Positions 3,720 through 59,949 of a stretch of DNA of 64,000 nt are shown in pieces. Source of the DNA: an uncultured Candidatus Saccharibacteria bacterium. GTDB taxonomy: Bacteria > Patescibacteriota > Minisyncoccia > Phycocordibacterales > Phycocordibacteraceae. The stretch's first letter is position 1, and every line of letters begins with the position of its first letter. The notes under the pieces are model-generated. The model searched no databases. It had not been told where the DNA came from and saw nothing but the letters and a program-made list of their open reading frames with translations. The stretch is from the NCBI GenBank assembly GCA_964607655.1, contig CAZSKX010000001.1, forward strand, positions 147,434 to 211,433, given 5' to 3'. Made by a program: the position numbers and the translations under genes.

Positions 3720-3765
3720 GGCGCGCAGGGGATCGAAAGATCCTCCTGCGCGCCTTTTCTTTTTA
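3720..3765 (+). terminator. intrinsic terminator
   Basis: GGCGCGCAGGGGATC-gaaa-GATCCTCCTGCGCGCC hairpin followed by TTTTCTTTTT. Confidence 0.7.
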
Positions 3766-38710: not shown

Positions 38711-39142
38711 TTATTTAGTGACCGTGTCCACCTTCTCGGCGAAGCTCTCAGCGTCGCGTTCGATCGCGGCCGTGTAGTTCTTCCAGGCCTTCTCTTCCCA
38801 GATCTCGACCCGATCGGCCACACCGGCGACTACCGCCTTCTCCTTGACGCCAGCATAGGCCTTCAGGTGGTCAGGGATGAGGATGCGGCCTGAGCCGTCG
38901 ACTTCGACTTCACTACTGCCCGCTAGGAAGAGGCGTGCGAGACCGCGACGTGCAGCCGAGCCATTCACTTCACTCGCATAGCTCTTGGCCTCGCGCTCCC
39001 AGGCCTTCCTCGAGAACACGTACAGACAATGATCAAGGCCGCGGGTCACCACGACCACGCGGCCAAGATCTTTGCGAAATTTCGAAGGAATCGAAACTCG
39101 ATTTTTTGTGTCAAAAGTGTGTAGGTATTCTCCGAGGAACAT
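38711..39142 (-). CDS. mraZ: transcriptional regulator MraZ
   Basis: MFLGEYLHTFDTKNRVSIPSKFR and duplicated SpoVT/AbrB-like halves. Confidence 0.85.
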   Translation of the reverse strand: MFLGEYLHTFDTKNRVSIPSKFRKDLGRVVVVTRGLDHCLYVFSRKAWEREAKSYASEVNGSAARRGLARLFLAGSSEVEVDGSGRILIPDHLKAYAGVKEKAVVAGVADRVEIWEEKAWKNYTAAIERDAESFAEKVDTVTK

Positions 39143-39182
39143 TGTGGTGCGGCGCTCGAGGGGTCGGGGCCATGGCTCCCCT

Positions 39183-39229
39183 TCCCACTCTGTATGCCTT
39201 ACATAGGATTATATCCCACTTCCCCCCAC
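39183..39229 (-). promoter_or_regulatory. mraZ promoter: TATAAT -10 box plus GTGGG direct repeats (candidate MraZ operator)
   Basis: On the minus strand: GTGGG-GGGAA-GTGGG immediately upstream of TATAAT (39208-39213), and a third GTGGG downstream at 39183-39187. Confidence 0.5.
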
Positions 39230-39253
39230 AAGATTGCATGAAGTTATTAACAC

Positions 39254-39282
39254 TTGACTCGGTAAGATTATTGTTTTAATCT
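39254..39282 (+). promoter_or_regulatory. sigma70-like promoter TTGACT-17-TAATCT
   Basis: Divergent from the mraZ promoter; drives the 39316/39513 gene pair. Confidence 0.5.
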
Positions 39283-39315
39283 ACAAACAGAACAAAAAAG
39301 TGAGGTGCGTAACCG

Positions 39316-39513
39316 ATGAAGGTTCATTTTGCTGTCGCCATCAATGACTTTTCAGCGTTTCAAGCTGGGGATGAGGTGCCGATTCTCGAACCGTCCAACG
39401 ACACTGTCGTGGGCGCTGAGAAGGTTCGTATCACTGCGGAGATTGACGAGGTCAAGACCTTCGTCAGCGAAGACGAAGTCCGTATGGTCCGACGAGTTAA
39501 GGAGAGGTTCTAA
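39316..39513 (+). CDS. small hypothetical protein (65 aa)
   Basis: GAGGTG Shine-Dalgarno sequence; stop overlaps the next start (TAATGG). Confidence 0.4.
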   Translation: MKVHFAVAINDFSAFQAGDEVPILEPSNDTVVGAEKVRITAEIDEVKTFVSEDEVRMVRRVKERF

Positions 39514-39770
39514 TGGAAGTCGACATGAGACATCCCGTAGCCGATCGGTCAGCGGCGGCCATCGAAGCTGTCAAACAACACTTCAACCATCCGGGGATCG
39601 CCTACGAGTGGATTTCTCTCGGCGCGAAGTCGGTCGATGCCACGGAGTTCTTGATCGGAGGGTGGCTCTCGCGAGGTGAGATCGAATGCTATCCGGTCTG
39701 CCTCGTCGCCGACGGCACGATCGTGGACGTCGAATTTTTTGGGATGTACTGCCCCTTCGGCGTTCTCTGA
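39513..39770 (+). CDS. small hypothetical Cys-containing protein (85 aa)
   Basis: Translationally coupled to the upstream ORF; C-terminal CYPVC...CPFG. Confidence 0.4.
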   Translation: MEVDMRHPVADRSAAAIEAVKQHFNHPGIAYEWISLGAKSVDATEFLIGGWLSRGEIECYPVCLVADGTIVDVEFFGMYCPFGVL

Positions 39771-39778
39771 ACGAATAC

Positions 39779-39850
39779 CGGCGCGGACTTGGAAACAAGT
39801 CCGCGCCGTTTCTTTTTATGCTTGACGTGAGTAGATTACCAGTTTATTAC
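39779..39850 (+). repeat. terminator-promoter cassette, copy 1 (hairpin + T-run + TTGACG-17-TATTAC)
   Basis: CGGCGCGGACTTGGAAACAAGTCCGCGCCGTTTCTTTTTAT is identical to 40953-40993. Confidence 0.75.
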
Positions 39851-39892
39851 TAAAGGAGTCCATAACATTCTGTTCTTAGAAGGAGAACGTAC

Positions 39893-40141
39893 ATGGGATA
39901 CCCAATTTTGGAGCGTCAGCTCGGCATTCTGAGGGAGTTTCTCGATCAGCTCGAGATCCCCTACAACATCTGCTGCTCGTGGTCTCCGGGTTGTACGCTC
40001 AGTCCGATTTACTGGCTTGTGCGGACGACGCACGGCACGGGGGAATTCAAAGTGGAGTCCCTTGTGGACTACGAAGTGAAGGAATCCCGGGAAGAGACTC
40101 GGGTGGTCGTTGTCGGAATTCGTTCTGCAGATTGCCACTAG
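39893..40141 (+). CDS. small hypothetical Cys-rich protein (82 aa)
   Basis: AGGAGA Shine-Dalgarno sequence; contains CCSWSPGC and a C-terminal CH. Confidence 0.4.
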   Translation: MGYPILERQLGILREFLDQLEIPYNICCSWSPGCTLSPIYWLVRTTHGTGEFKVESLVDYEVKESREETRVVVVGIRSADCH

Positions 40142-40162
40142 GAGATGATCTAGAAGCCCACA

Positions 40163-40231
40163 GGGAAGCCCGCAAGCTTCTCGTGGGCTTCCCTTTTATA
40201 TATTGACAATTAGACATATATATGCTATTTT
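40163..40231 (+). promoter_or_regulatory. terminator hairpin followed by a consensus promoter TTGACA-17-TATTTT
   Basis: GGGAAGCCCGC-aagcttctc-GTGGGCTTCCC plus TTTTATATA, then TTGACA at 40203. Confidence 0.6.
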
Positions 40232-40283
40232 ATTTAGGTACCCAGCAATGGGAAGTCGCTATGTACCAAGGAGGTGTTTGAAG

Positions 40284-40463
40284 ATGTTCTCACTGATCAT
40301 CGGAGCCGCATGCGCGGGAGGCTGTGTTTACACACTTTCGGACAGTCGCATGGCAGGAGCCCTGGCGGCTGGCGGAGTGTATTTCACCGTCTCAGCGATC
40401 GAAACTATCATGGCGGGCCTACTTACCCAGGTGGTACAGCGCATCGCGAAACTGAAGCAGTAA
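40284..40463 (+). CDS. small membrane protein (60 aa, two TM segments)
   Basis: AAGGAGG Shine-Dalgarno sequence 7 nt upstream; hydrophobic Gly/Ala-rich helices. Confidence 0.45.
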   Translation: MFSLIIGAACAGGCVYTLSDSRMAGALAAGGVYFTVSAIETIMAGLLTQVVQRIAKLKQ

Positions 40464-40501
40464 GCAACAGGAAGGCACGGTTGTTCCAAGGAGGAAACAT
40501 C

Positions 40502-40918
40502 ATGGCATCTTCGTCTCCGTCCCAAAACGTTACGACAGCGGCGGCTCTCGGGACTCTGATCATGTACCTCATGGTCTTGGTCATGTTTCTGAAGCACGTA
40601 CTCGTACCGCTCTCGCCACTCGTTACGATCGCGTTCGTCGCCCTCGGTACGATCTGGGCTTGCAACTACGGCCAGGCGACGCGCCTGCTCTCGCTCGGCG
40701 GCCTTGGGCTCTACGTGCTGTCGTGGTACGTGGCTCCGACGAACGTCTCGATCACGGACTGGGAGAAGATCCCAAGCGCGTTCGTTCTCCTGCTTGCCTG
40801 TGCGAGCTGGACGTATGCGGCGTTCAGGTCGGGATTCTTCGATCTCTTCCTGTACGCGCTCGTTGCGCTCAAGGGCGGTCTCGAGACTTCCACAGCAGAG
40901 CGTACCTCTGGCGTATAA
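40502..40918 (+). CDS. integral membrane protein (139 aa, about four TM segments)
   Basis: AAGGAGG Shine-Dalgarno sequence; the in-frame longer ORF from 40274 lacks an RBS. Confidence 0.5.
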   Translation: MASSSPSQNVTTAAALGTLIMYLMVLVMFLKHVLVPLSPLVTIAFVALGTIWACNYGQATRLLSLGGLGLYVLSWYVAPTNVSITDWEKIPSAFVLLLACASWTYAAFRSGFFDLFLYALVALKGGLETSTAERTSGV

Positions 40919-40952
40919 ACTGGAGGGCAACGATCAATTTGATCGCCAACAA

Positions 40953-41023
40953 CGGCGCGGACTTGGAAACAAGTCCGCGCCGTTTCTTTTTATACTTGAC
41001 AAAGTATAAGGGTAGTATATACT
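40953..41023 (+). repeat. terminator-promoter cassette, copy 2 (hairpin + T-run + TTGACA-17-TATACT)
   Basis: Identical 41 nt to copy 1; the 15-mer TTGACAAAGTATAAG recurs at 56981-56995. Confidence 0.75.
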
Positions 41024-41027
41024 CCTC

Positions 41028-41192
41028 ATGCCGACTAACACGATGGAACGGTGCGGCTGCGACGGTACTGACCCGTCGCCTTGGAAACAGTTCCCAGACC
41101 TGGTGGGACCGAGATATGGGCGACATCTTGGTTTGGCCGGGGATCTGAGTACAAAGTGGATCGCCCCGCCGGCAGTCGTCATGAATCCATGA
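41028..41192 (+). CDS. leaderless 54-aa Cys-containing micro-ORF, or alternatively a ~180-nt sRNA
   Basis: ATG lies 4-6 nt after the -10 box with no Shine-Dalgarno sequence; the transcript ends at a strong terminator that overlaps the ORF's 3' end. Confidence 0.3.
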   Translation: MPTNTMERCGCDGTDPSPWKQFPDLVGPRYGRHLGLAGDLSTKWIAPPAVVMNP

Positions 41193-41209
41193 CTGCCGGC
41201 GTTTTTTTA
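41168..41209 (+). terminator. intrinsic terminator
   Basis: GCCGGCAGTC-gtcatgaatccat-GACTGCCGGC followed by GTTTTTTT. Confidence 0.75.
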
Positions 41210-41215
41210 TACAAA

Positions 41216-42670
41216 CTACTGTCGAGGGCGCAGCAAGGGGAAGATTTGCGCTTCACGGACGGAAACACCTTCGAGGAAGCTAAAGAGTCTCTCAGAGATC
41301 CCGAAACCGAAGGCTGGGGGCATGCCATATTCAAGCGCCTCAATGAATTCACGGTCGGCCATCTGAGCCTCGTCGTCGCCCGCGTCGCGGAGGGCCTGTT
41401 GGCGATTAAAGCGCTCGGCCTGGTCAACAGGGTCGTTCAATTCGCTGAAGCCCTTCCCAATCTCTGAGCCGGCGATCATGATCTGGAAACGCTCTACTAC
41501 ACGAGGGTCTTTTGCTGATTTCTTTGCGAGCGGTTCAAGATAGACTGGCACATTTATTAAAAATCCGGGGCCTTGGATCGTTTTACGGATTTGTTTCCAA
41601 GCGATGTCGACGAGTCGACCCGTATCGGCGCTGTCTTCATAGGCAATACCTCGATCATCGAGTACAGAAGCCCAATCAGCATCTGTGTCGCGAGGGTCAA
41701 GTCCGTATTCTTTCTGCATTAATTCACAAAAGTCGTACCGTTTCCATTCCCTGTCCAGATCAATCTCAAACCCTTTAATATTGAAAACGCGCGTGCCGTA
41801 GACTTTATCAGCAATTGTACGGTAAAGCTCAGTGAGCATCTCCATCCCTTGCTCAAAATCAGTAAACGCCTGGTAGAACTCAATCTGAGTATAGTCTTGC
41901 GCGTGTTCAGGCGACATTCCCTCGTTTCGAAAGATGCGTCCAATTTCAAATGTCTTGGGGAGCCCTGCCACCATAAGACGCTTCTGCCAGAGCTCCCCAG
42001 CCGAGATGCGGAGGTACACGTCGATATCGAGTGCGTTGTGATGCGTTTCGAAAGGCCGTGCTTCGGCTCCGCCGGTAGTGTTCTCGAGCACAGGAGTTTC
42101 GACCTCGACGAAATCGCGCTCGAGGAGGAACTGCCGCATAGTATTCCAGAACGCTGAGCGACGCTTGATGCGGTCAACCAAATCCTTAGTGAGAAGAATA
42201 TCGAGGTATCGTTTACGATAGCGTTCGTCTTCGTCTTTGATCCCGTACCACTCGTCAGGAAGAGGGCGCAGCGACTTGGCGAGCATGCGCCAGTTGGTAA
42301 GGTCGAGTGAGGGCATCCCGCGCTTGGTCGTGTAAGGCGTCCCCGCGACTTCGATAATGTCGCCCGCATCGACCGTCGCGGCGAACAAGTCGTAAGACTC
42401 GTCTCCCAGCACACTTTTCTGTACGTAACACTGCCCTTTCGTGCCGTCGAAGAGGTCGATGAACATTGCGGCGCCGTGTTCGCGGATACTCATGACCCTG
42501 CCGGCGAGCATCACTTCTTCTCGATTTTTCTCAAGTGTCGAGTAGTTTTCAAGGAATTGCTGGACCGTGTGTGTGCGGTGCGCCTTAGCCGGGTACGCCT
42601 CCATGCCCGCCCCCTTAAGGCGTTCAATTTTTGCTAATCGTTCTGCTCGAACGTCGTCGAGTAGTGCCAT
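41216..42670 (-). CDS. lysS: lysyl-tRNA synthetase (class II)
   Basis: N-terminal OB fold, FRNEGMSPEHAQDYTQIEFYQAF (motif 2) and GMPPAFGFGISERL (motif 3). Confidence 0.9.
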   Translation of the reverse strand: MALLDDVRAERLAKIERLKGAGMEAYPAKAHRTHTVQQFLENYSTLEKNREEVMLAGRVMSIREHGAAMFIDLFDGTKGQCYVQKSVLGDESYDLFAATVDAGDIIEVAGTPYTTKRGMPSLDLTNWRMLAKSLRPLPDEWYGIKDEDERYRKRYLDILLTKDLVDRIKRRSAFWNTMRQFLLERDFVEVETPVLENTTGGAEARPFETHHNALDIDVYLRISAGELWQKRLMVAGLPKTFEIGRIFRNEGMSPEHAQDYTQIEFYQAFTDFEQGMEMLTELYRTIADKVYGTRVFNIKGFEIDLDREWKRYDFCELMQKEYGLDPRDTDADWASVLDDRGIAYEDSADTGRLVDIAWKQIRKTIQGPGFLINVPVYLEPLAKKSAKDPRVVERFQIMIAGSEIGKGFSELNDPVDQAERFNRQQALRDAGDDEAQMADREFIEALEYGMPPAFGFGISERLFSFLEGVSVREAQIFPLLRPRQ

Positions 42671-43934: not shown

Positions 43935-44036
43935 TGTTCTTGCGATCCCGCCTCGCGGTTCGTCCTGCTGGCCGAACATCGCTGCGGCTTCCACAAAAGC
44001 GAAAAGCCTGCCGCAAGGCAGACTTTTCAGCTTTTG
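43935..44036 (-). repeat. conserved ~100-nt structured element 3' of tRNA-Ala, copy 1
   Basis: Shares CCCGCCTCGCGGTTCG..CTGCTG.CCGAACATCGCTGCG..TTCCACA.AAGC..AAAGCC...CTTTTC..CTT.TGTGGA with 50855-50955. Confidence 0.6.
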
Positions 44037-44107
44037 TGGACCTACGGGGAGTCGAACCCCGACCTCGTCCATGCCATGGACGCGTTCTACCGCTGAACTA
44101 TAGGCCC
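44037..44107 (-). tRNA. tRNA-Ala (anticodon GGC)
   Basis: Acceptor GGGCCTA/TAGGTCC with G3:U70, anticodon stem CGTCC/GGACG and loop ATGGCAT; CCA not encoded. Confidence 0.8.
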
Positions 44108-55315: not shown

Positions 55316-55448
55316 TCTGGGTATCCTCCAAAGGTCTTCTATAGAGGGGAACAGCCGAACCGAGACATAAGTTACCGGCGGGATAAGTTGTTTGACGACG
55401 GCATATTCTACACGTATCGTGATCCCAGATCAGGCAAAGGAGGTCAGA

Positions 55449-55661
55449 ATGGAAAAGACGGTGTCATTCACTGAGATTCCCAGACGGGAACACAAGAAGA
55501 TCTGTGATGAGCTTGCAGCGCACGCGCTGGTCTCGGTATCGATCAGGCGCCTCGGCTCGAGCAGGGGGATGCTCAGGATCGCTTCGGCGTTCCCTGCGGA
55601 GTTCGAGAAGGCTCGCGCCTGGATCCTCGAACGCTTCGGAGAGAAAGTCCAGGGCATCTGA
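55449..55661 (+). CDS. small hypothetical protein (70 aa)
   Basis: AAAGGAGG Shine-Dalgarno sequence before the ATG at 55449. Confidence 0.4.
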   Translation: MEKTVSFTEIPRREHKKICDELAAHALVSVSIRRLGSSRGMLRIASAFPAEFEKARAWILERFGEKVQGI

Positions 55662-55670
55662 AGGCCAATC

Positions 55671-55732
55671 GGCCGCACAAGGAAGGAACGACCCTCGGGT
55701 CTTCTCAAGACTTGTGCGGCCGTTCCTATTTC
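55671..55732. terminator. long bidirectional hairpin terminator
   Basis: GGCCGCACAAG...(inner GACCC-tc-GGGTC)...CTTGTGCGGCC followed by GTTCCTATTTCTCG. Confidence 0.7.
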
Positions 55733-56979
55733 TCGCGCAAACTTTTTGTACGGACGCGGCGGTGACGGGAGAGCGAGAAGCGATGTGCTTCAGAGTTAAT
55801 CAAGACCGCGTCGGCCTCAGACAGGTGTGCGCGCTTGGCGCCGATCACTTCGCGGGGGCGGTGTCGCTCGTCCTTCACTACCGCGACGACGGGGATCCCG
55901 AGGCCGAGCTCAGACAATTTCCCTTCAGCGGCCTTCTTGTGCGTTGCGCCGCCATCGACGACGATCACGCGCGGCGACTCCCACTCAAGGTGTGAGAAGC
56001 GGCGGGTGAGCAGCTCTTTGAGCGAGCCGATATCATCGTTTTTCTTGAAGCCACGAATATTAAATGTTCGGTATTCTTTCTTGATCACTTCCCCGTCTTC
56101 AAGCACGGTCAATACGCCGATCGCGTTCGTGCCGCTCAAGTGTGCGGTGTCGTACGCCTCGATTCGACCGTAGGCGGTGGCGGTGCGCAGCGCCTCGAGT
56201 TGCTCGTCTTTGATCAGGGACACGTCTTGCACGTGGTCGAGGGCATAGAGCTCACGACGGAGCGCCGCCGCGTCTTCGAAGCGCTCTGCCTTCGCAGCGG
56301 CCTTCATCTCGCGCTCTATCGCCACGCGGAGCGCCTTGCCTCGCCCCGAGAGAAAGAGTGCTGCTTTTCGTATCGTCTTGCGGTATTCGATCGGGTCGAT
56401 GGTGCTCGGGTACTGGCGTATCTGTTTATTGAACTCGATCTTGGCTTGGTGATGTTTGTTGGCTCTCGTCGCGTCTACTGGCTTCGCGGTGTCGAAGAAT
56501 GGAAAGATGCGTTGCAGGAGACGCAGGGCTTCCTTCAACTGTGCGCCTGATGGAAAGGGGCCGTAAATGCTCGCGAGACTCTGCCCCTCGAGCGTTCGCT
56601 TCGCCTTGAAGTCGATATTCTTACCTCGTATCGCGAGCACGCGCGGGATAGTCTCGTCGGTGATGACTGCGTAGAGGAAGCTCGAGTCGTCTTTGCCTAT
56701 CGCATTTGCGGGCGGCAAGTACTTCTTAATGTAGGACGCTTCAAGCACGAGCGCTTCGAGTACGGTTGGGGCACTCTCGTGCGCGACTCGATCAGCTCGA
56801 GTAACCATATCGACGATACGCGGCCCGCGCGTCGCGATCAGGTCATCGTCGAAGTAGCTGCGCACCCGGTCGCGCAGGCTCGTCGCCTTACCTACGTACA
56901 AGACCTTCCTGCCCTTCTTAAACAAATACACCCCCGGCACATCGGGCAGGTCTTTGGTTGACTTGTGGGCAATTTCCAT
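55726..56979 (-). CDS. uvrC: excinuclease ABC subunit C, short form lacking the C-terminal (HhH)2
   Basis: GIY-YIG domain LPDVPGVYLFKK...LYVGKATSLRDRVRSYF, UVR motif, RNase-H-like endonuclease domain; 417 aa. Confidence 0.8.
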   Translation of the reverse strand: MEIAHKSTKDLPDVPGVYLFKKGRKVLYVGKATSLRDRVRSYFDDDLIATRGPRIVDMVTRADRVAHESAPTVLEALVLEASYIKKYLPPANAIGKDDSSFLYAVITDETIPRVLAIRGKNIDFKAKRTLEGQSLASIYGPFPSGAQLKEALRLLQRIFPFFDTAKPVDATRANKHHQAKIEFNKQIRQYPSTIDPIEYRKTIRKAALFLSGRGKALRVAIEREMKAAAKAERFEDAAALRRELYALDHVQDVSLIKDEQLEALRTATAYGRIEAYDTAHLSGTNAIGVLTVLEDGEVIKKEYRTFNIRGFKKNDDIGSLKELLTRRFSHLEWESPRVIVVDGGATHKKAAEGKLSELGLGIPVVAVVKDERHRPREVIGAKRAHLSEADAVLINSEAHRFSLSRHRRVRTKSLREK

Positions 56980-56980
56980 A

Positions 56981-57009
56981 TTGACAAAGTATAAGTATTA
57001 TACTATGTT
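56981..57009 (+). promoter_or_regulatory. sigma70-like promoter TTGACAAAGTATAAG...TATGTT
   Basis: -35 TTGACA and a 17-nt spacer; the 15-mer is shared with 40995-41009. Confidence 0.5.
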
Positions 57010-57057
57010 AAACATGGTAAACAAGTCGGCCTGCTACAGAACACAAGGAGAACGATT

Positions 57058-57264
57058 ATGGCAGAAAGTCCGCTCGATGAGCTTGACAGACGCGACCGTG
57101 AACAGGCAGCGGAGATCGAAGAGGGGCTCTTCCCGCTGCTTCACTCGGTAGCCGACAGAGGCTCCACCATCAGGGACCCTACCGCTCGGCAGATCCTCGA
57201 CCGATGCCAGAAGCATATCAGCAAGATGCTCCACGGGAAGATGATCGGGATCGTCATCGACTGA
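57058..57264 (+). CDS. small hypothetical protein (68 aa)
   Basis: AAGGAGAA Shine-Dalgarno sequence; consensus promoter upstream and a strong terminator downstream. Confidence 0.45.
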   Translation: MAESPLDELDRRDREQAAEIEEGLFPLLHSVADRGSTIRDPTARQILDRCQKHISKMLHGKMIGIVID

Positions 57265-57275
57265 AGGTGGAGCTT

Positions 57276-57316
57276 GGCGGCGCGGAACCCCCACGGGGAC
57301 CGCGCCGCTTTTTTAT
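57276..57316. terminator. bidirectional intrinsic terminator
   Basis: GGCGGCGCGG-aacccccacgggga-CCGCGCCGC followed by TTTTTTATTT. Confidence 0.8.
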
Positions 57317-59949
57317 TTCTTCTTGCTCTTGTGGCGCTTGAGGAGCTTGGCGAGGTAATCGCCGGTGTAGGAGCCCTCAGTCTGAGCCACTTCTTCTGGC
57401 GTGCCTTTTGCAATAATCTTTCCGCCCTTCACTCCCCCTTCAGGGCCGAAGTCGATCAGGTAGTCAGCGCTCTTGATCACGTCGAGGTTGTGCTCGATCA
57501 CAACGACCGTGTTTCCACGGCGCACGAGCTCTTGGAGAATCTCGATCAGTTTACGTACGTCGTCGTAATGGAGCCCCACTGTCGGCTCGTCGAGCAGGTA
57601 GAGCGTTTTCATCGAGATCGGGCGGTAGAACTCGCTCGCGATCTTGACCCGTTGTGCCTCGCCGCCCGAGAGCGTCGTTGCGCTTTGACCCAGCGTGAGG
57701 TATTCGAGTCCGGTTGCGTTAAGCGAAGCGAGACGTTCAGAGATCGCGGGAATATCGTAGAAGAACTTCTCAGCTTCTTCGATCGTCATCTGGAGCACAT
57801 CGTAAATATTTTTCCCGCGGTAGGTCACCTCAAGGGTCTCTTTCATAAATCGCTTGCCCATACAGATGTCGCAGGTCACATACACCGTCGGGAGGAAGTG
57901 CATCTCCACGGCGACCATGCCGTTGCCCTGACAAGCTTCGCAGCGCCCTCCTGGGACGTTGAAGGAGAAACGGCCTGGTTTCCATCCTCGCGCACGTGCC
58001 TCGCTAGAAGCGGCGAATAGGTCGCGGATATGAGTAAAGGCTCCGGTGTAGGTAGCGGGATTGCTGCGCGGGGTGCGTCCGATTGGCGACTGATCGATGA
58101 GTACTGTGCGGCTGACGTACTCAGTGCCCGTGAGTGACGAGGCGTGTTCGAGCTTACTTTCCCGCTTGCTTTGGCGCGCTGCGATATTTCGGTGGAGCAC
58201 GTCGTAGAGGAAGGTCGACTTACCGCTCCCTGACACGCCGGTGATACACACGAGGCGGCCGAGCGGCACGTCGATGTTCTGATTCTTTAAATTATGCAGC
58301 GTAGCACCACGAACTTTGATCCACCCGTGTTCGCGAGTGCGGCGTTCCTCAGGGATCTCAATCGCCTTCTCTTCGCGCAGATACCCGAGTGTCGAGGAGC
58401 AGCTCTTGTTCTCCTTAGCCGTGAGGAGTTCTTCGAGCCAGCCGCTCGCGACAACGGTACCGCCGTGGGTGCCCGCGCCTGGGCCGATGTCGACCAGGTA
58501 GTCAGCGGCGTAGATCGTGTCTTCGTCGTGCTCGACGACGATGATGGTGTTACCGAGCTCCTTGAGGTGGAGGAGCGTCTCGATCAGGCGGTCGTTGTCG
58601 CGCTGGTGTAGGCCGATCGTCGGCTCGTCAAGGACGTAGAGTGCGCCCGTGAGCCCGCTGCCGAGCTGGCTCGCGAGGCGGATACGTTGGGCCTCGCCTC
58701 CAGAGAGGGTCGCGGCCGAGCGGTTAAGCGTGAGGTAGTCGAGGCCGACGTTGAGCATAAAGGTGAGGCGGCTCTCGATCTCGCGGAGGATCGGCGCGGC
58801 GATGTCCTTTTTCATCTCGGAGAGCTCGATCGAGTCAACGAATTCTTTAGCTTCTTTGATCGACATGCTGGTGAAGTCGACGACGTTATAGCCGAGAGTC
58901 TTGCTACCCTTCTGTTTAAGGTATACGCGCAGCGCTTCCTTACGCAGGCGCTTGCCCTCGCACTCACTACAGACCTTGTCGCTGAAGAGCGTCTCGGTAC
59001 CGAGACCGTTACAGGCCGGACAGGCTCCGTACGGAGAGTTGAAGGAGAAGAGTCGCGGCTCGACCTCGGGGAAGGAAGCGCCGTCCTCGGGGCAGATAAA
59101 CTTACTCGAGAGTGTCTCGATTTCGCCGTTCGCATGGCGTAACTTCACCAGGCCATCGGCCTCCTTAAGCGCGAGCTCGAGCGCCTCAGAGAGACGCTCG
59201 CGAGCAGCAGCGCTCGTGCGGATAAACTCGGATACGAAAATACTGTCGACGAGCGCGTCGATCGAGTGCTGCTTGTTACGATCGAGGACGATCTTCTCGC
59301 GAAGCGACTGTTCCTTACCGTCGATCACGACACGCTCGAACCCTTTACCAAGGAGGTCGTAGAGGAGCTGGTAGTACTCGCCCTTACGGCCCACCACCAC
59401 GGGCGCGTAGACCGTGACGGCGCTCTTGTCGACCGCGACCCCCATCACCTTCTCGTCTGTCTTGGAACGTTTCGACTCGATGCGATCCATCACCATCTTG
59501 ATCATCTCTTCCTTCGAGAGACGGACGATCGGTACGTCGTGATGGATACAGTAGGGCTGGCCGGCGCGTGCGTAGAGCACACGCAGATAGTCGTAGATCT
59601 CGGTAACGGTGGCGACCGTCGAGCGAGGGTTGTTAGAACGGCTCTTCTGGTCGATGGAAATGGCCGGACTAAGACCGTCGATCTGGTCGACGTCAGGCTT
59701 GGCCATCTGGTTCAAAAATTGTCGGGCGTAGGCCGAAAGTGATTCGACGTAGCGGCGCTGCCCTTCGGCAAAGATCGTATCAAACGCGAGCGATGATTTA
59801 CCGCTGCCCGAGACGCCAGTGATGACCGTCATCGCGCCGCGCGGCATCTCGACATCAATATTTTTCAAATTGTGGGTGCGCGCACCCTTCACCCGGATCC
59901 AGTCGGAGCCGTGTTTGTGCTTGTGTTCTTCTTTCGTGTGCTTCTTCAT
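57313..59949 (-). CDS. uvrA: excinuclease ABC subunit A
   Basis: Two ABC ATPase modules (GVSGSGKSSLAFDT...) and zinc-finger segments; 878 aa. Confidence 0.95.
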   Translation of the reverse strand: MKKHTKEEHKHKHGSDWIRVKGARTHNLKNIDVEMPRGAMTVITGVSGSGKSSLAFDTIFAEGQRRYVESLSAYARQFLNQMAKPDVDQIDGLSPAISIDQKSRSNNPRSTVATVTEIYDYLRVLYARAGQPYCIHHDVPIVRLSKEEMIKMVMDRIESKRSKTDEKVMGVAVDKSAVTVYAPVVVGRKGEYYQLLYDLLGKGFERVVIDGKEQSLREKIVLDRNKQHSIDALVDSIFVSEFIRTSAAARERLSEALELALKEADGLVKLRHANGEIETLSSKFICPEDGASFPEVEPRLFSFNSPYGACPACNGLGTETLFSDKVCSECEGKRLRKEALRVYLKQKGSKTLGYNVVDFTSMSIKEAKEFVDSIELSEMKKDIAAPILREIESRLTFMLNVGLDYLTLNRSAATLSGGEAQRIRLASQLGSGLTGALYVLDEPTIGLHQRDNDRLIETLLHLKELGNTIIVVEHDEDTIYAADYLVDIGPGAGTHGGTVVASGWLEELLTAKENKSCSSTLGYLREEKAIEIPEERRTREHGWIKVRGATLHNLKNQNIDVPLGRLVCITGVSGSGKSTFLYDVLHRNIAARQSKRESKLEHASSLTGTEYVSRTVLIDQSPIGRTPRSNPATYTGAFTHIRDLFAASSEARARGWKPGRFSFNVPGGRCEACQGNGMVAVEMHFLPTVYVTCDICMGKRFMKETLEVTYRGKNIYDVLQMTIEEAEKFFYDIPAISERLASLNATGLEYLTLGQSATTLSGGEAQRVKIASEFYRPISMKTLYLLDEPTVGLHYDDVRKLIEILQELVRRGNTVVVIEHNLDVIKSADYLIDFGPEGGVKGGKIIAKGTPEEVAQTEGSYTGDYLAKLLKRHKSKKK

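What the first reader, a model, noticed from the sequence alone, without database searches (positions are those of the whole stretch)
39779..41023. Exact 41-50 nt terminator-promoter cassette present twice, and a 15-mer promoter module shared with a third site
CGGCGCGGACTTGGAAACAAGTCCGCGCCGTTTCTTTTTAT followed by a -35 box occurs at 39779-39827 and again, identical, at 40953-41000, bracketing the two small membrane-protein genes. The 15-mer TTGACAAAGTATAAG then recurs at 56981-56995 in front of another small ORF, 57058-57264. Exact reuse of a hairpin-plus-promoter unit suggests a modular, possibly mobile or recombinogenic regulatory cassette rather than independently evolved signals.
Basis: seen in the sequence. 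Interest (0 to 1): 0.55.

Follow-up and report, generated by a model that had tools for sequence, protein, structure and literature searches.

The report
Duplicated terminator in small-gene islet
Two identical copies of a transcription stop signal, each running straight into the start signal of the next gene, lie 1.2 kb apart inside a fast-changing cluster of tiny genes wedged between two housekeeping genes of a Patescibacteria (CPR) bacterium; the evidence points to a recent local copy rather than a mobile element, so it is real but fairly ordinary.

Summary
The 41-nt exact repeat (39779-39819 and 40953-40993) is real and is the longest exact repeat in the window. It is a complete Rho-independent terminator: a 13-bp G+C-rich stem, a GAAA loop and a TTTCTTTTTAT tail (-29 and -30 kcal/mol). 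After one mismatch, both copies continue with CTTGAC, the -35 box of the next promoter. The copies are therefore 47/48 identical, not identical as stated.

Both copies lie in a 2.07-kb islet of four same-strand transcription units between mraZ and lysS. These two genes are about 150 bp apart in the nearest relatives. Other relatives carry 0, 1 or at least 3 small genes there.

Of 27 strong terminator-like hairpins in the window, only this pair is a duplicate. The 41-mer gave no match in JGI metagenome contigs. The hairpin stem gave none in IMG/VR and two unrelated terminators in GTDB genomes. I found no recombinase or transposase among the ORFs I checked.

My best reading is a recent local copy of a terminator during remodelling of a modular, moron-like small-gene islet. 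The 15-mer shared with 56981 is exact, but it is no more than the window's background of chance 15-mers plus the TTGACA consensus.

Modularity is supported. Mobility is not. The interest is low to moderate.

The parts
39143..41215 (+). Lineage-specific islet between mraZ (38711-39142, minus strand) and lysS (41216-42670, minus strand). It holds four plus-strand transcription units.
   Evidence: lysS and mraZ are about 150 bp apart in L003 and L004. The spacer holds one small ORF in L005, L007 and L012 and at least three in L008. MraZ was confirmed with Pfam and LysS by homology.
39254..39282 (+). Promoter P1 (TTGACT, 17-nt spacer, TAATCT). It diverges from the mraZ regulatory region.
   Evidence: Read. 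The -35 box and its flank are orthologous to L005, L007 and L008.
39316..39770 (+). W65 (39316-39513) and W85 (39513-39770), small soluble proteins whose ORFs overlap at ATGA. This is transcription unit 1, ended by terminator copy 1.
   Evidence: ORFs. W65 is 44% identical to L008 ORF63 (E 1e-17), and W85 matches L008 ORF102 (E 3e-7). Both are in the protein collection as singletons.
39779..39819 (+). TermA copy 1: hairpin 39779-39808 (13-bp stem, GAAA loop) plus U-tract TTTCTTTTTAT. It starts 8 nt after the W85 stop codon.
   Evidence: Folding energy -28.9 kcal/mol, z -6.9.
39822..39850 (+). Promoter Pa: TTGACG, 17-nt spacer, TATTAC. The -10 box is weak and lacks the final T.
   Evidence: Read. 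The consensus scan did not list it.
39893..40141 (+). W82, a diverged paralog of W85. Both belong to the L008 ORF102 family.
   Evidence: AAGGAG Shine-Dalgarno sequence.
40153..40231 (+). TermB hairpin with its U-tract, running into promoter P2 (TTGACA 40203, TATTTT 40226).
   Evidence: It is 79% identical to the orthologous junction in L008.
40231..40283 (+). Conserved leader, GTACCCAGCAATGGGAAGTC...
   Evidence: It is shared with L005, L007 and L008 upstream of different small membrane-protein genes.
40284..40918 (+). W59 (40284-40463) and W138 (40502-40918), hydrophobic small proteins. This is transcription unit 3, ended by terminator copy 2.
   Evidence: Hydropathy. The W138 family consists of weak homologs of about 110-147 aa. 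L008 carries a homolog with 30% identity, E 8e-11.
40953..40993 (+). TermA copy 2, identical to copy 1. Its stem can be extended to 40951-40984. It starts 34 nt after the W138 stop codon.
   Evidence: Folding energy -30.4 kcal/mol, z -8.1.
40996..41023 (+). Promoter Pb: TTGACA, 16-nt spacer, TATACT (11 of 12 consensus positions). It contains the 15-mer TTGACAAAGTATAAG.
41028..41210 (+). Transcript predicted from Pb to TermC (hairpin 41167-41201 plus a T-run). It is a candidate ~180-nt non-coding RNA rather than the 54-aa ORF.
   Evidence: There is no Shine-Dalgarno sequence, the ATG lies 4 nt after the -10 box, and GC2 is about equal to GC3. Fold z-score -3.05. No Rfam family matched. The ORF is absent from the protein collection.
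56981..57318 (+). Third site. It comprises a promoter (TTGACA, 17-nt spacer, TATGTT) that shares the 15-mer, W68 (57058-57264), and a terminator (57276-57309 plus T-run) whose stem base is CGGCGCGGA...CCGCGCCG. It lies on the opposite strand between uvrC and uvrA.

Best explanation
What it is. The repeat is one Rho-independent terminator present in two identical copies. Copy 1 ends the W65-W85 unit and copy 2 ends the W59-W138 unit. In both places the U-tract (TTTCTTTTTAT) is followed two bases later by the -35 box of the next promoter. Each site is therefore a compact terminator/promoter junction that insulates consecutive same-strand transcription units in a 2-kb islet of small genes.

Why the copies are identical (inferred). 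One copy was made from the other very recently by a local, non-reciprocal recombination event while the islet was being remodelled. I lean towards a short gene-conversion-like patch laid into an intergenic spacer that already existed between the old paralogs W85 and W82. Unequal or illegitimate recombination that joined two units is the second option. The element does not appear to move by itself.

What is shown.
- The anatomy and identity of the repeat.
- Its uniqueness among the window's terminators.
- The islet is a lineage-specific, variable insertion between lysS and mraZ.
- W85 and W82 are diverged paralogs.

What is inferred.
- Termination and promoter activity in vivo.
- That the copy is recent, and in which direction it went.
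- The recombination mechanism.
For: - Repeat: 41/41 exact and 47/48 over 48 nt. The flanks are unrelated on both sides.
- Terminator features: strong hairpins (-28.9 and -30.4 kcal/mol, z -6.9 and -8.1) with a U-tract, lying 8 nt and 34 nt after stop codons, functional on the plus strand only.
- Promoters: Pb matches 11 of 12 consensus positions. Pa is TTGACG, 17-nt spacer, TATTAC.
- Uniqueness: of 27 strong terminator-like hairpins, only this pair is a duplicate. Its local alignment score is 46. The next scores (24-38) are the same hairpins read on both strands or overlapping calls, and the best between different loci is 17.
- Not widespread: the 41-mer has no match in metagenome contigs. The hairpin stem has none in viral contigs and only two unrelated terminators in GTDB species genomes.
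- The islet is variable. lysS and mraZ are adjacent in L003 and L004. The spacer holds one small ORF in L005, L007 and L012, and at least three in L008.
- Age: the orthologous TermB-P2 junction is only 79% identical between the window and L008. Terminators therefore drift at this evolutionary distance, and a 100% identical pair must be young.
- Paralogs: W85 and W82 both match L008 ORF102 but share no nucleotide similarity. The gene duplication is thus much older than the terminator copy. ORF102 resembles W85 in its N-terminal half and W82 in its C-terminal half. This suggests the tandem pair, and so a spacer between the two genes, predates the split from L008.
- No mobility genes: no integrase, transposase or RAYT (the transposase that mobilises REP elements) in 34 ORFs scanned.
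- No hits for the islet in phage or plasmid collections. Its GC and GC3 are like those of the host genes.
Against: - The rest of the genome (a 464-kb contig) could not be read, so genome-wide copy number is untested beyond these 64 kb.
- No relative closer than about 85-88% nucleotide identity was available. None carries TermA itself, so the ancestral state and the direction of copying are unknown.
- The layout X-R-Y...Z-R-W is also the classic footprint of insertion by recombination at R.
- A 41-48-nt conversion patch needs some pre-existing homology. I can show only weak hints of it: about 11 of 19 matches in the promoter spacers, read by eye from the sequences.
- Pa has a poor -10 box, so 'terminator plus promoter' is less secure at copy 1.
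- There are no transcription data.
Confidence: 0.6

Rival explanations
1. Cassette insertion footprint. The 1,174-bp unit (promoter Pa remainder, W82, TermB, P2, W59, W138 and one TermA) entered, or can leave, by recombination at the terminator. The mechanism could be a Campbell-type single crossover, unequal crossover, or homology-facilitated illegitimate recombination after DNA uptake. The two TermA copies would then be the recombination joints.
For: - The repeats are direct and flank a self-contained set of transcription units, and the flanks outside the repeat are unrelated.
- The lysS-mraZ spacer is clearly a hot spot for gain and loss of small genes.
- The junction motif TTTTAT-RC-TTGAC recurs at terminator-promoter junctions, including a non-orthologous one in L008. 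It could supply microhomology.
- Homology-facilitated illegitimate recombination is documented for building arrays of small genes (PMC3240628, PMC5361080).
Against: - L008 has the W65-like gene, the ORF102 gene, TermB, P2, the leader and the W138-like gene contiguous at the same locus. The block inside the repeats is therefore old and resident, not a recent import.
- The mosaic pattern of ORF102 (N-terminal half like W85, C-terminal half like W82, p=0.037) suggests W85 and W82 were already in tandem before the split.
- There is no integrase.
- The composition is the same as the host's.
Confidence: 0.22
2. Shared promoter module. Pb (40996) and the promoter of W68 (56981) descend from one portable promoter. 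On this view the W68 unit and the islet units belong to one family of promoter-ORF-terminator cassettes.
For: - The 15-mer is exact and starts at the -35 box in both.
- Only about five TTGACA-type promoter candidates exist in the window.
- Both are followed by TA.TATA..CT if two gaps are allowed (my reading).
- The W68 terminator stem base, CGGCGCGGA...CCGCGCCG, resembles TermA and the L005/L007 terminator.
- W68 and W82 share AAGGAGAACG, three bases, then ATG.
- Both sit on the strand opposite to flanking housekeeping genes.
Against: - Eight other unrelated exact 15-mers occur in the same window, and 14 repeats of 15 nt or more are observed against 2.5 in shuffles.
- Six of the 15 bases are the -35 consensus, and the rest is A+T-rich spacer.
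- The flanks do not align without gaps.
- The -10 boxes end up at different spacings (16 and 17 nt, using different hexamers).
- G+C-rich stem bases such as CGGCGCGG are low in information. An 11-bp stem match occurs by chance in two unrelated phyla.
- There is no protein similarity between W68 and the islet proteins.
Confidence: 0.12
3. Mobile palindromic element. On this view the hairpin is a REP/BIME-like or MITE-like unit that spreads through the genome and happens to act as a terminator.
For: It is a perfect 13-bp inverted repeat. The copied segment begins exactly at the base of the hairpin.
Against: - There are only 2 copies in 64 kb, both in one islet.
- About 25 other terminators are all different.
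- The 41-mer has no match in JGI metagenome contigs. The stem pattern has none in IMG/VR and only two unrelated terminators in GTDB genomes.
- There is no target-site duplication and no conserved flanking tetranucleotide.
- No RAYT or transposase was found among the ORFs scanned.
- No over-represented k-mers.
Confidence: 0.04
4. Assembly artefact. The metagenome assembler joined two strain haplotypes at a shared terminator, or polishing homogenised two similar terminators.
For: The source appears to be a metagenome-assembled genome of a CPR bacterium. The locus is highly variable between related populations.
Against: - A 48-nt repeat is shorter than the usual final k-mers and read lengths.
- Both junctions have unique flanks, which require real reads.
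- The alternative resolution of the repeat graph would need a 1.17-kb circle.
- The gene order W82, TermB, P2, leader, W138 is independently seen in L008.
Confidence: 0.03

Closest known systems
Rho-independent (intrinsic) terminators, and terminator-promoter junctions in compact genomes
   Same: It has a G+C-rich perfect stem, a tetraloop and a U-tract, and lies just after a stop codon. The next -35 box follows immediately. The window contains about 25 such terminators.
   Different: Terminators are normally individually distinct, as the others in this window are. Here two are identical at every base, which implies a recent copy.
Phage 'morons': extra genes with their own promoter and terminator, inserted between conserved neighbours, with insertion hot spots (definition as given in PMC2920897)
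   Same: The units are self-contained promoter-ORF(s)-terminator units. They lie between genes that are adjacent in relatives, and different relatives carry different units at the same spot.
   Different: They sit in a cellular chromosome between lysS and mraZ, not in a phage. GC content is the same as the host's. There are no phage hits or PHROG families. Morons are not defined by duplicated terminators.
Gene arrays built by homology-facilitated illegitimate recombination or unequal recombination, such as orphan T6SS immunity arrays and Rhs/CDI orphan arrays (PMC5361080, PMC3240628)
   Same: Small genes accumulate stepwise at one locus, with short shared sequences at the unit boundaries, and the arrays contain diverged paralogs (W85 and W82).
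   Different: No toxin, effector or immunity families were detected. The shared boundary is a terminator, not coding sequence. The mechanism is inferred, not shown.
REP/BIME elements with RAYT transposases, and uptake-sequence pairs that form terminators in Neisseria and Haemophilus (from my own knowledge)
   Same: These are palindromic sequences that recur downstream of genes and can act as terminators.
   Different: They occur in hundreds of copies per genome. Here there are 2 copies in 64 kb, no over-represented k-mer and no RAYT.
Integron attC sites flanking small promoterless cassettes (from my own knowledge)
   Same: Hairpin-forming repeats separate small ORFs.
   Different: The stem is perfect, with no extrahelical bases. 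There are no R''/R' core sites (RYYYAAC/GTTRRRY). The units carry their own promoters. No IntI integrase was found.

Membership tests
Rho-independent terminator | Stable G+C-rich stem-loop | tested here: met
   13-15 bp stem with a GAAA loop. Folding energies -28.9 and -30.4 kcal/mol, z -6.9 and -8.1. Also listed by the consensus scan.
Rho-independent terminator | U-rich tract immediately 3' of the stem, on the sense strand of the upstream gene | tested here: met
   The tail is TTTCTTTTTAT. The hairpins start 8 nt after the W85 stop and 34 nt after the W138 stop. The minus-strand tails are not T-rich.
Rho-independent terminator | Transcripts end there in vivo | not testable with these tools
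   No RNA data are available. Term-seq would be needed.
Sigma-70-type promoter | -35 and -10 hexamers separated by 16-18 nt | tested here: inconclusive
   Copy 2: TTGACA, 16-nt spacer, TATACT, matching 11 of 12 positions. Copy 1: TTGACG, 17-nt spacer, TATTAC, which lacks the invariant last T and was not listed by the scan. Third site: TTGACA, 17-nt spacer, TATGTT. No transcription-start data exist.
REP/BIME or MITE-like mobile palindrome | Many dispersed copies in the genome | tested here: not met
   There are 2 copies in 64 kb, both in one islet. The 41-mer has no match in JGI metagenome contigs. The hairpin-stem pattern has none in IMG/VR and two unrelated terminators in GTDB genomes. The rest of the source genome could not be read.
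REP/BIME or MITE-like mobile palindrome | Target-site duplication or conserved flanking motif, and a cognate transposase (RAYT or other) | tested here: not met
   The flanks are unrelated and show no duplication. No transposase family was found in 34 ORFs scanned.
Integron gene cassette (attC) | Imperfect hairpin with R''/L''-L'/R' sites and extrahelical bases, and an IntI integrase nearby | tested here: not met
   The stem is perfect. No RYYYAAC or GTTRRRY cores lie at its ends (by inspection). No integrase was found.
Moron-like unit (PMC2920897 criteria) | Inserted between genes that are adjacent in relatives | tested here: met
   lysS and mraZ are about 150 bp apart in L003 and L004, against 2,073 bp here.
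Moron-like unit (PMC2920897 criteria) | Own promoter and terminator | tested here: met
   Four units each have a predicted promoter and a strong terminator. This rests on prediction only.
Moron-like unit (PMC2920897 criteria) | Composition different from the surroundings, and presence in phages | tested here: not met
   The islet has GC 0.536 against 0.559 for the window, and its GC3 is like that of the host genes. There are no phage or plasmid nucleotide hits and no PHROG families.
Recent segmental copy or gene conversion | Identity far above that of orthologous or paralogous sequence of the same kind, with sharp boundaries | tested here: met
   The repeat is 41/41 identical, against 79% for the orthologous TermB junction in L008. 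The neighbouring paralogs W85 and W82 share no nucleotide similarity.

The most novel reading that the evidence does not exclude
Terminator-promoter junctions (hairpin, TTTTAT, two bases, TTGAC) may act as the recombination joints of a chromosomal, moron-like shuffling system in Patescibacteria. Self-contained small-gene units with strong Shine-Dalgarno sequences would be added, duplicated and lost at fixed hot spots on the strand opposite to housekeeping genes, such as lysS-mraZ and uvrC-uvrA. The identical TermA pair, and possibly the shared Pb/W68 promoter 15-mer, would be fresh traces of that process. The islet is driven from a promoter back-to-back with the MraZ boxes, so it might also be tied to regulation of cell division.
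Probability: 0.12. Interest if true: 0.5.

Novelty: new member of a known kind. Interest (0 to 1): 0.22.

Why it matters
On its own, a duplicated terminator matters little. It is mainly a dating mark showing that this islet was remodelled very recently.

The context is more useful. A conserved gene pair (lysS-mraZ) in a group of Paceibacteria-like CPR bacteria hosts a rapidly changing set of tiny, strongly expressed-looking genes of unknown function, several of them membrane proteins. CPR bacteria have reduced genomes and live attached to hosts, so small variable surface or membrane proteins are plausible players in host or phage interaction.

If unit boundaries at terminator-promoter junctions prove to be preferred recombination points, that would give a simple mechanism for how such genomes try out new small genes without disturbing neighbouring operons.

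Tried and rejected
- **GTDB genomes.** The hairpin-stem search found only a Flintibacter terminator and a Pseudomonadota MAG terminator. Their loops and flanks differ, so they are chance or convergent matches, not relatives.
- **JGI metagenomes and IMG/VR.** The exact 41-mer gave no hit in JGI metagenomes. The hairpin stem gave none in IMG/VR.
- **mraZ-box pattern in metagenomes.** It only re-found the L003 contig.
- **Exact look-ups of the window's MraZ and LysS.** Not on record, so the rest of the source genome could not be read.
- **Concatenated six-ORF protein query.** It returned nothing, not even the self-hits that searches show are in the database. I treat this negative as uninformative.
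- **Profile search with W65 plus its L008 homolog.** It found only those two proteins.
- **Family libraries.** Pfam, PHROGs, PADLOC and NCBIfam gave no family for any islet protein.
- **Phage and plasmid collections.** blastn of the islet gave nothing.
- **Rfam.** Gathering and E-value modes gave no RNA family for the repeat or the Pb transcript.
- **Structure prediction.** For W65, only 1 of 5 AlphaFold2 models was confident and it had no PDB fold match. The ORF102-family model was unusable, with pLDDT 43.
- **Conserved leader.** The consensus fold showed no supported structure.
- **Uptake-sequence idea.** No over-represented 8-12-mers.
- **Ideas rejected on anatomy.** CRISPR-like, integron attC, dif/Xer and prophage att readings do not fit: the stem is perfect, there are two copies 1.17 kb apart, there is no recombinase, and the genes inside are syntenic with L008.
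- **Convergent evolution of 41 identical bases.** Rejected, because the orthologous TermB has already drifted to 79% identity.
Full report
**Observation**

The 41-mer CGGCGCGGACTTGGAAACAAGTCCGCGCCGTTTCTTTTTAT occurs exactly twice, at 39779-39819 and 40953-40993, and none of 100 shuffles produced a match. It is the longest exact direct repeat in the 64-kb window. The copies then differ at one base (39820 G, 40994 A), share CTTGAC, and diverge completely. Upstream of the hairpin base the flanks are also unrelated. The repeat is therefore 48 nt with 47/48 identity, not an identical 49-mer. The interval between the copies holds three ORFs, not two: W82 at 39893-40141, W59 at 40284-40463 and W138 at 40502-40918. 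Only the last two are hydrophobic.

**Anatomy**

The 41 nt make a complete Rho-independent terminator.
- It has a 13-bp perfect G+C-rich stem (15 bp in copy 2), a GAAA loop and a TTTCTTTTTAT tail.
- The folding energies are -28.9 and -30.4 kcal/mol, with z-scores of -6.9 and -8.1.
- It works on the plus strand only.
- It begins 8 nt after the W85 stop codon and 34 nt after the W138 stop codon.

Two bases after the tail comes a -35 box. Pb, at copy 2, is TTGACA, a 16-nt spacer, then TATACT, matching 11 of 12 consensus positions. Pa, at copy 1, is TTGACG, a 17-nt spacer, then TATTAC. Its -10 box lacks the invariant final T, and the scan did not list it.

The same tight terminator-to-promoter design is seen at TermB-P2 (40153-40231). 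It also appears in relative L008, where the non-orthologous TermB-P2 junction reads TTTTATACTTGACA, identical to the TermA2-Pb junction. The shared CTTGAC after the mismatch can therefore be explained by functional consensus. Only the terminator is demonstrably copied.

**Context**

The window is a Patescibacteria chromosome. LysS has its best named relatives in Paceibacterota, Kaiserbacteria and Minisyncoccota. The neighbours are the dcw cluster, greA, enolase and uvrABC.

The repeat lies in a 2,073-bp spacer between mraZ (38711-39142, minus strand) and lysS (41216-42670, minus strand). This spacer carries four plus-strand transcription units:
- P1, W65 and W85, then TermA1
- Pa and W82, then TermB
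- P2, a leader, W59 and W138, then TermA2
- Pb and a ~180-nt region without a Shine-Dalgarno sequence, then TermC

In the relatives, the same spacer varies.

| Relative (calls) | Similarity to the window | Content of the lysS-mraZ spacer |
|---|---|---|
| L003 (22, 25) | LysS 84% | about 150 bp, no gene |
| L004 (23, 26) | LysS 85% | about 150 bp, no gene |
| L005, L007 (24, 27, 35, 38) | LysS 88% (L005) | one 43-aa membrane ORF behind a leader homologous to 40231-40264 |
| L012 (68-70) | LysS at least 90% | a different 59-aa membrane ORF |
| L008 (36, 37, 41, 47) | about 88% nt in the dcw genes | P1, ORF63 (44% to W65), ORF102, TermB, P2, the leader, and a W138 homolog |

The spacer is thus a hot spot where self-contained small-gene units are gained and lost.

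The islet genes have host-like GC and GC3 and strong AAGGAG(G) Shine-Dalgarno sequences, whereas the flanking housekeeping genes lack one. They have no Pfam, PHROG, PADLOC or NCBIfam family and no phage or plasmid nucleotide match. W138 belongs to a small family of uncharacterised membrane proteins of 110-147 aa.

**How old is the copy?**

W85 and W82, the genes on either side of TermA1, are full-length but very diverged paralogs. Both match L008 ORF102 (E 3e-7 and 3e-6), and they share no nucleotide similarity. ORF102 resembles W85 in its N-terminal half (7 informative sites against 2) and W82 in its C-terminal half (13 against 5). Fisher's exact test gives p=0.037, with the split chosen post hoc. 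This suggests that the tandem pair, and hence a spacer between the two genes, predates the split from L008.

The orthologous TermB-P2 junction is only 79% identical between the window and L008. Terminators therefore drift freely at this evolutionary distance. A pair that is 41/41 identical must be much younger than the genes around it.

**Is it a dispersed or mobile element?**

Several results argue against this.
- Of 27 strong terminator-like hairpins in the window (-20 kcal/mol or stronger), only the TermA pair is a duplicate. Its local alignment score is 46. The next scores (24-38) come from the same hairpin read on both strands or from overlapping calls. The best score between different loci is 17.
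- No 8-12-mer is over-represented.
- The hairpin stem with any loop finds only two unrelated terminators in one genome per GTDB species.
- The 41-mer is absent from JGI metagenome contigs, and the hairpin is absent from IMG/VR.
- There is no target-site duplication and no attC-like core.
- None of the 34 further ORFs scanned is a transposase or integrase.

One caveat applies. The remainder of the source genome, a 464-kb contig, could not be retrieved, so copy number beyond these 64 kb is untested.

**The third site**

TTGACAAAGTATAAG is exact at 40996 and 56981. The second site is a plausible promoter (TTGACA, 17-nt spacer, TATGTT) for W68, a real-looking 68-aa ORF with a Shine-Dalgarno sequence and its own terminator. 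This unit lies on the strand opposite to uvrC and uvrA.

As a k-mer match it is unremarkable. The window has 14 maximal direct repeats of 15 nt or more, against 2.5 in shuffles, and 8 of them are unrelated coding 15-mers. Six of the 15 bases are the -35 consensus.

Some features argue the other way.
- Only about five TTGACA promoters exist in the window.
- The W68 terminator shares the stem base CGGCGCGGA...CCGCGCCG with TermA and with the L005/L007 terminator.
- W68 and W82 share AAGGAGAACG, three bases, then ATG.

I rate common ancestry of these modules as possible, at about 0.12, but not shown.

**Mechanism**

My best-supported reading, at about 0.6, is that TermA is an ordinary intrinsic terminator that insulates consecutive units, with the next promoter butted against its U-tract. 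One copy was made from the other recently by local non-reciprocal recombination during remodelling of the islet. I lean towards a short conversion patch laid into the pre-existing spacer between W85 and W82.

The main rival, at about 0.22, is that the 1,174-bp unit is an insertion, or an excisable segment, whose joints are the two TermA copies. This could arise through unequal crossover or homology-facilitated illegitimate recombination (PMC3240628, PMC5361080). The synteny of W82, TermB, P2, the leader and W138 with L008 argues that this block is resident and old.

Three further readings are less likely: a REP/MITE-like element (0.04), an assembly artefact (0.03) and convergence (below 0.01).

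**Comparison with known systems**

Functionally the repeat is a member of the intrinsic-terminator class. All sequence-level criteria are met, but activity in vivo is untested.

The islet works like a set of phage 'morons', as defined in PMC2920897. It meets two criteria: insertion between conserved neighbours, and its own promoter and terminator. It fails two others: deviant composition and presence in phages. I therefore call it moron-like, not a member of that class.

It fails the defining features of REP/BIME elements, MITEs and integron cassettes.

**Verdict**

The functional reading is correct. Modularity of the locus is supported, mobility is not, and the third-site link is weak. I classify it as a new member of a known kind, of low to moderate interest (0.22). 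The most interesting residue is the variable small-gene islet itself, together with the possibility that terminator-promoter junctions serve as its recombination joints.

Noticed in passing
window 43947-44005 and 50867-50925: A 59-nt element, 86% identical between the two sites, lies just downstream (on the minus strand) of two different tRNA-Ala genes (GGC at 44036-44107 and UGC at 50955-51028). In each case it follows a long hairpin. Its inner stem differs in a way that looks compensatory: GTTCGGCC...GGACGAAC against GTTCGGGC...GCCCGAAC.
   Followed up: no
window 40231-40283; L007 (reverse complement) about 905-972; L008 (reverse complement) about 282-345: A leader sequence, GTACCCAGCAATGGGAAGTC, is conserved at 79-82%. 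It lies at a fixed distance from the -35 box, in front of different small membrane-protein genes in different relatives. The consensus fold shows no supported structure.
   Followed up: partly
window 41028-41210: The promoter Pb is followed by about 180 nt with no Shine-Dalgarno sequence, non-coding-like GC by codon position, and a strong terminator. This is a candidate small RNA rather than the 54-aa ORF. The fold z-score is -3.05 and no Rfam family matches. It contains CTTGGAAACA, the same 10-mer as the TermA loop region.
   Followed up: partly
window 39160-39258: The mraZ upstream region has repeated GTGGG(A/G) boxes (probably MraZ operators, from my own knowledge). It is 98-99% identical to L005 and L007, although the flanking genes are only 78-85% identical. 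The islet's first promoter, P1, lies back-to-back with it.
   Followed up: partly
window-wide, for example 39513, 39893, 40284, 40502, 55449, 57058, 25866 (minus strand) and 26434: Strong AAGGAG(G) Shine-Dalgarno sequences occur mostly on small ORF units. Housekeeping genes (mraZ, lysS, greA, uvrA) lack one. lysS looks leaderless, with TATAGT, 7 nt, then ATG.
   Followed up: partly
window 55392-55725 and 56981-57318: uvrC (55726-56979, minus strand) is flanked on both sides by plus-strand units made of a promoter, a Shine-Dalgarno sequence, a small ORF (70 aa and 68 aa) and a hairpin. These resemble the lysS-mraZ islet in style.
   Followed up: no
L008 431-739 (minus strand) compared with window 39513-39770 and 39893-40141: The single ORF102 of L008 looks like a mosaic. 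Its N-terminal half is closer to W85 and its C-terminal half is closer to W82 (Fisher p=0.037, split chosen post hoc). This is compatible with a deletion by unequal crossover between tandem paralogs in the L008 lineage.
   Followed up: partly
window 19294/19323 and 27358/27386: Two bidirectional terminators at unrelated loci share the stem AAAACCCC(C)GGCCG. Apart from TermA and its partial match to the terminator at 3756, this is the best similarity between terminators at different loci (score 17).
   Followed up: no
L012 compared with the window: L012 has a LysS at least 90% identical in protein sequence. Its dcw side, however, is only 68% identical in nucleotides and resembles L004 instead. 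The lysS-mraZ spacer may therefore also be a recombination breakpoint between lineages.
   Followed up: no
tool behaviour: A concatenated query of the six islet ORFs returned no hit at all. Three of those proteins are representatives in the same database. Negatives from concatenated queries should not be trusted.
   Followed up: yes
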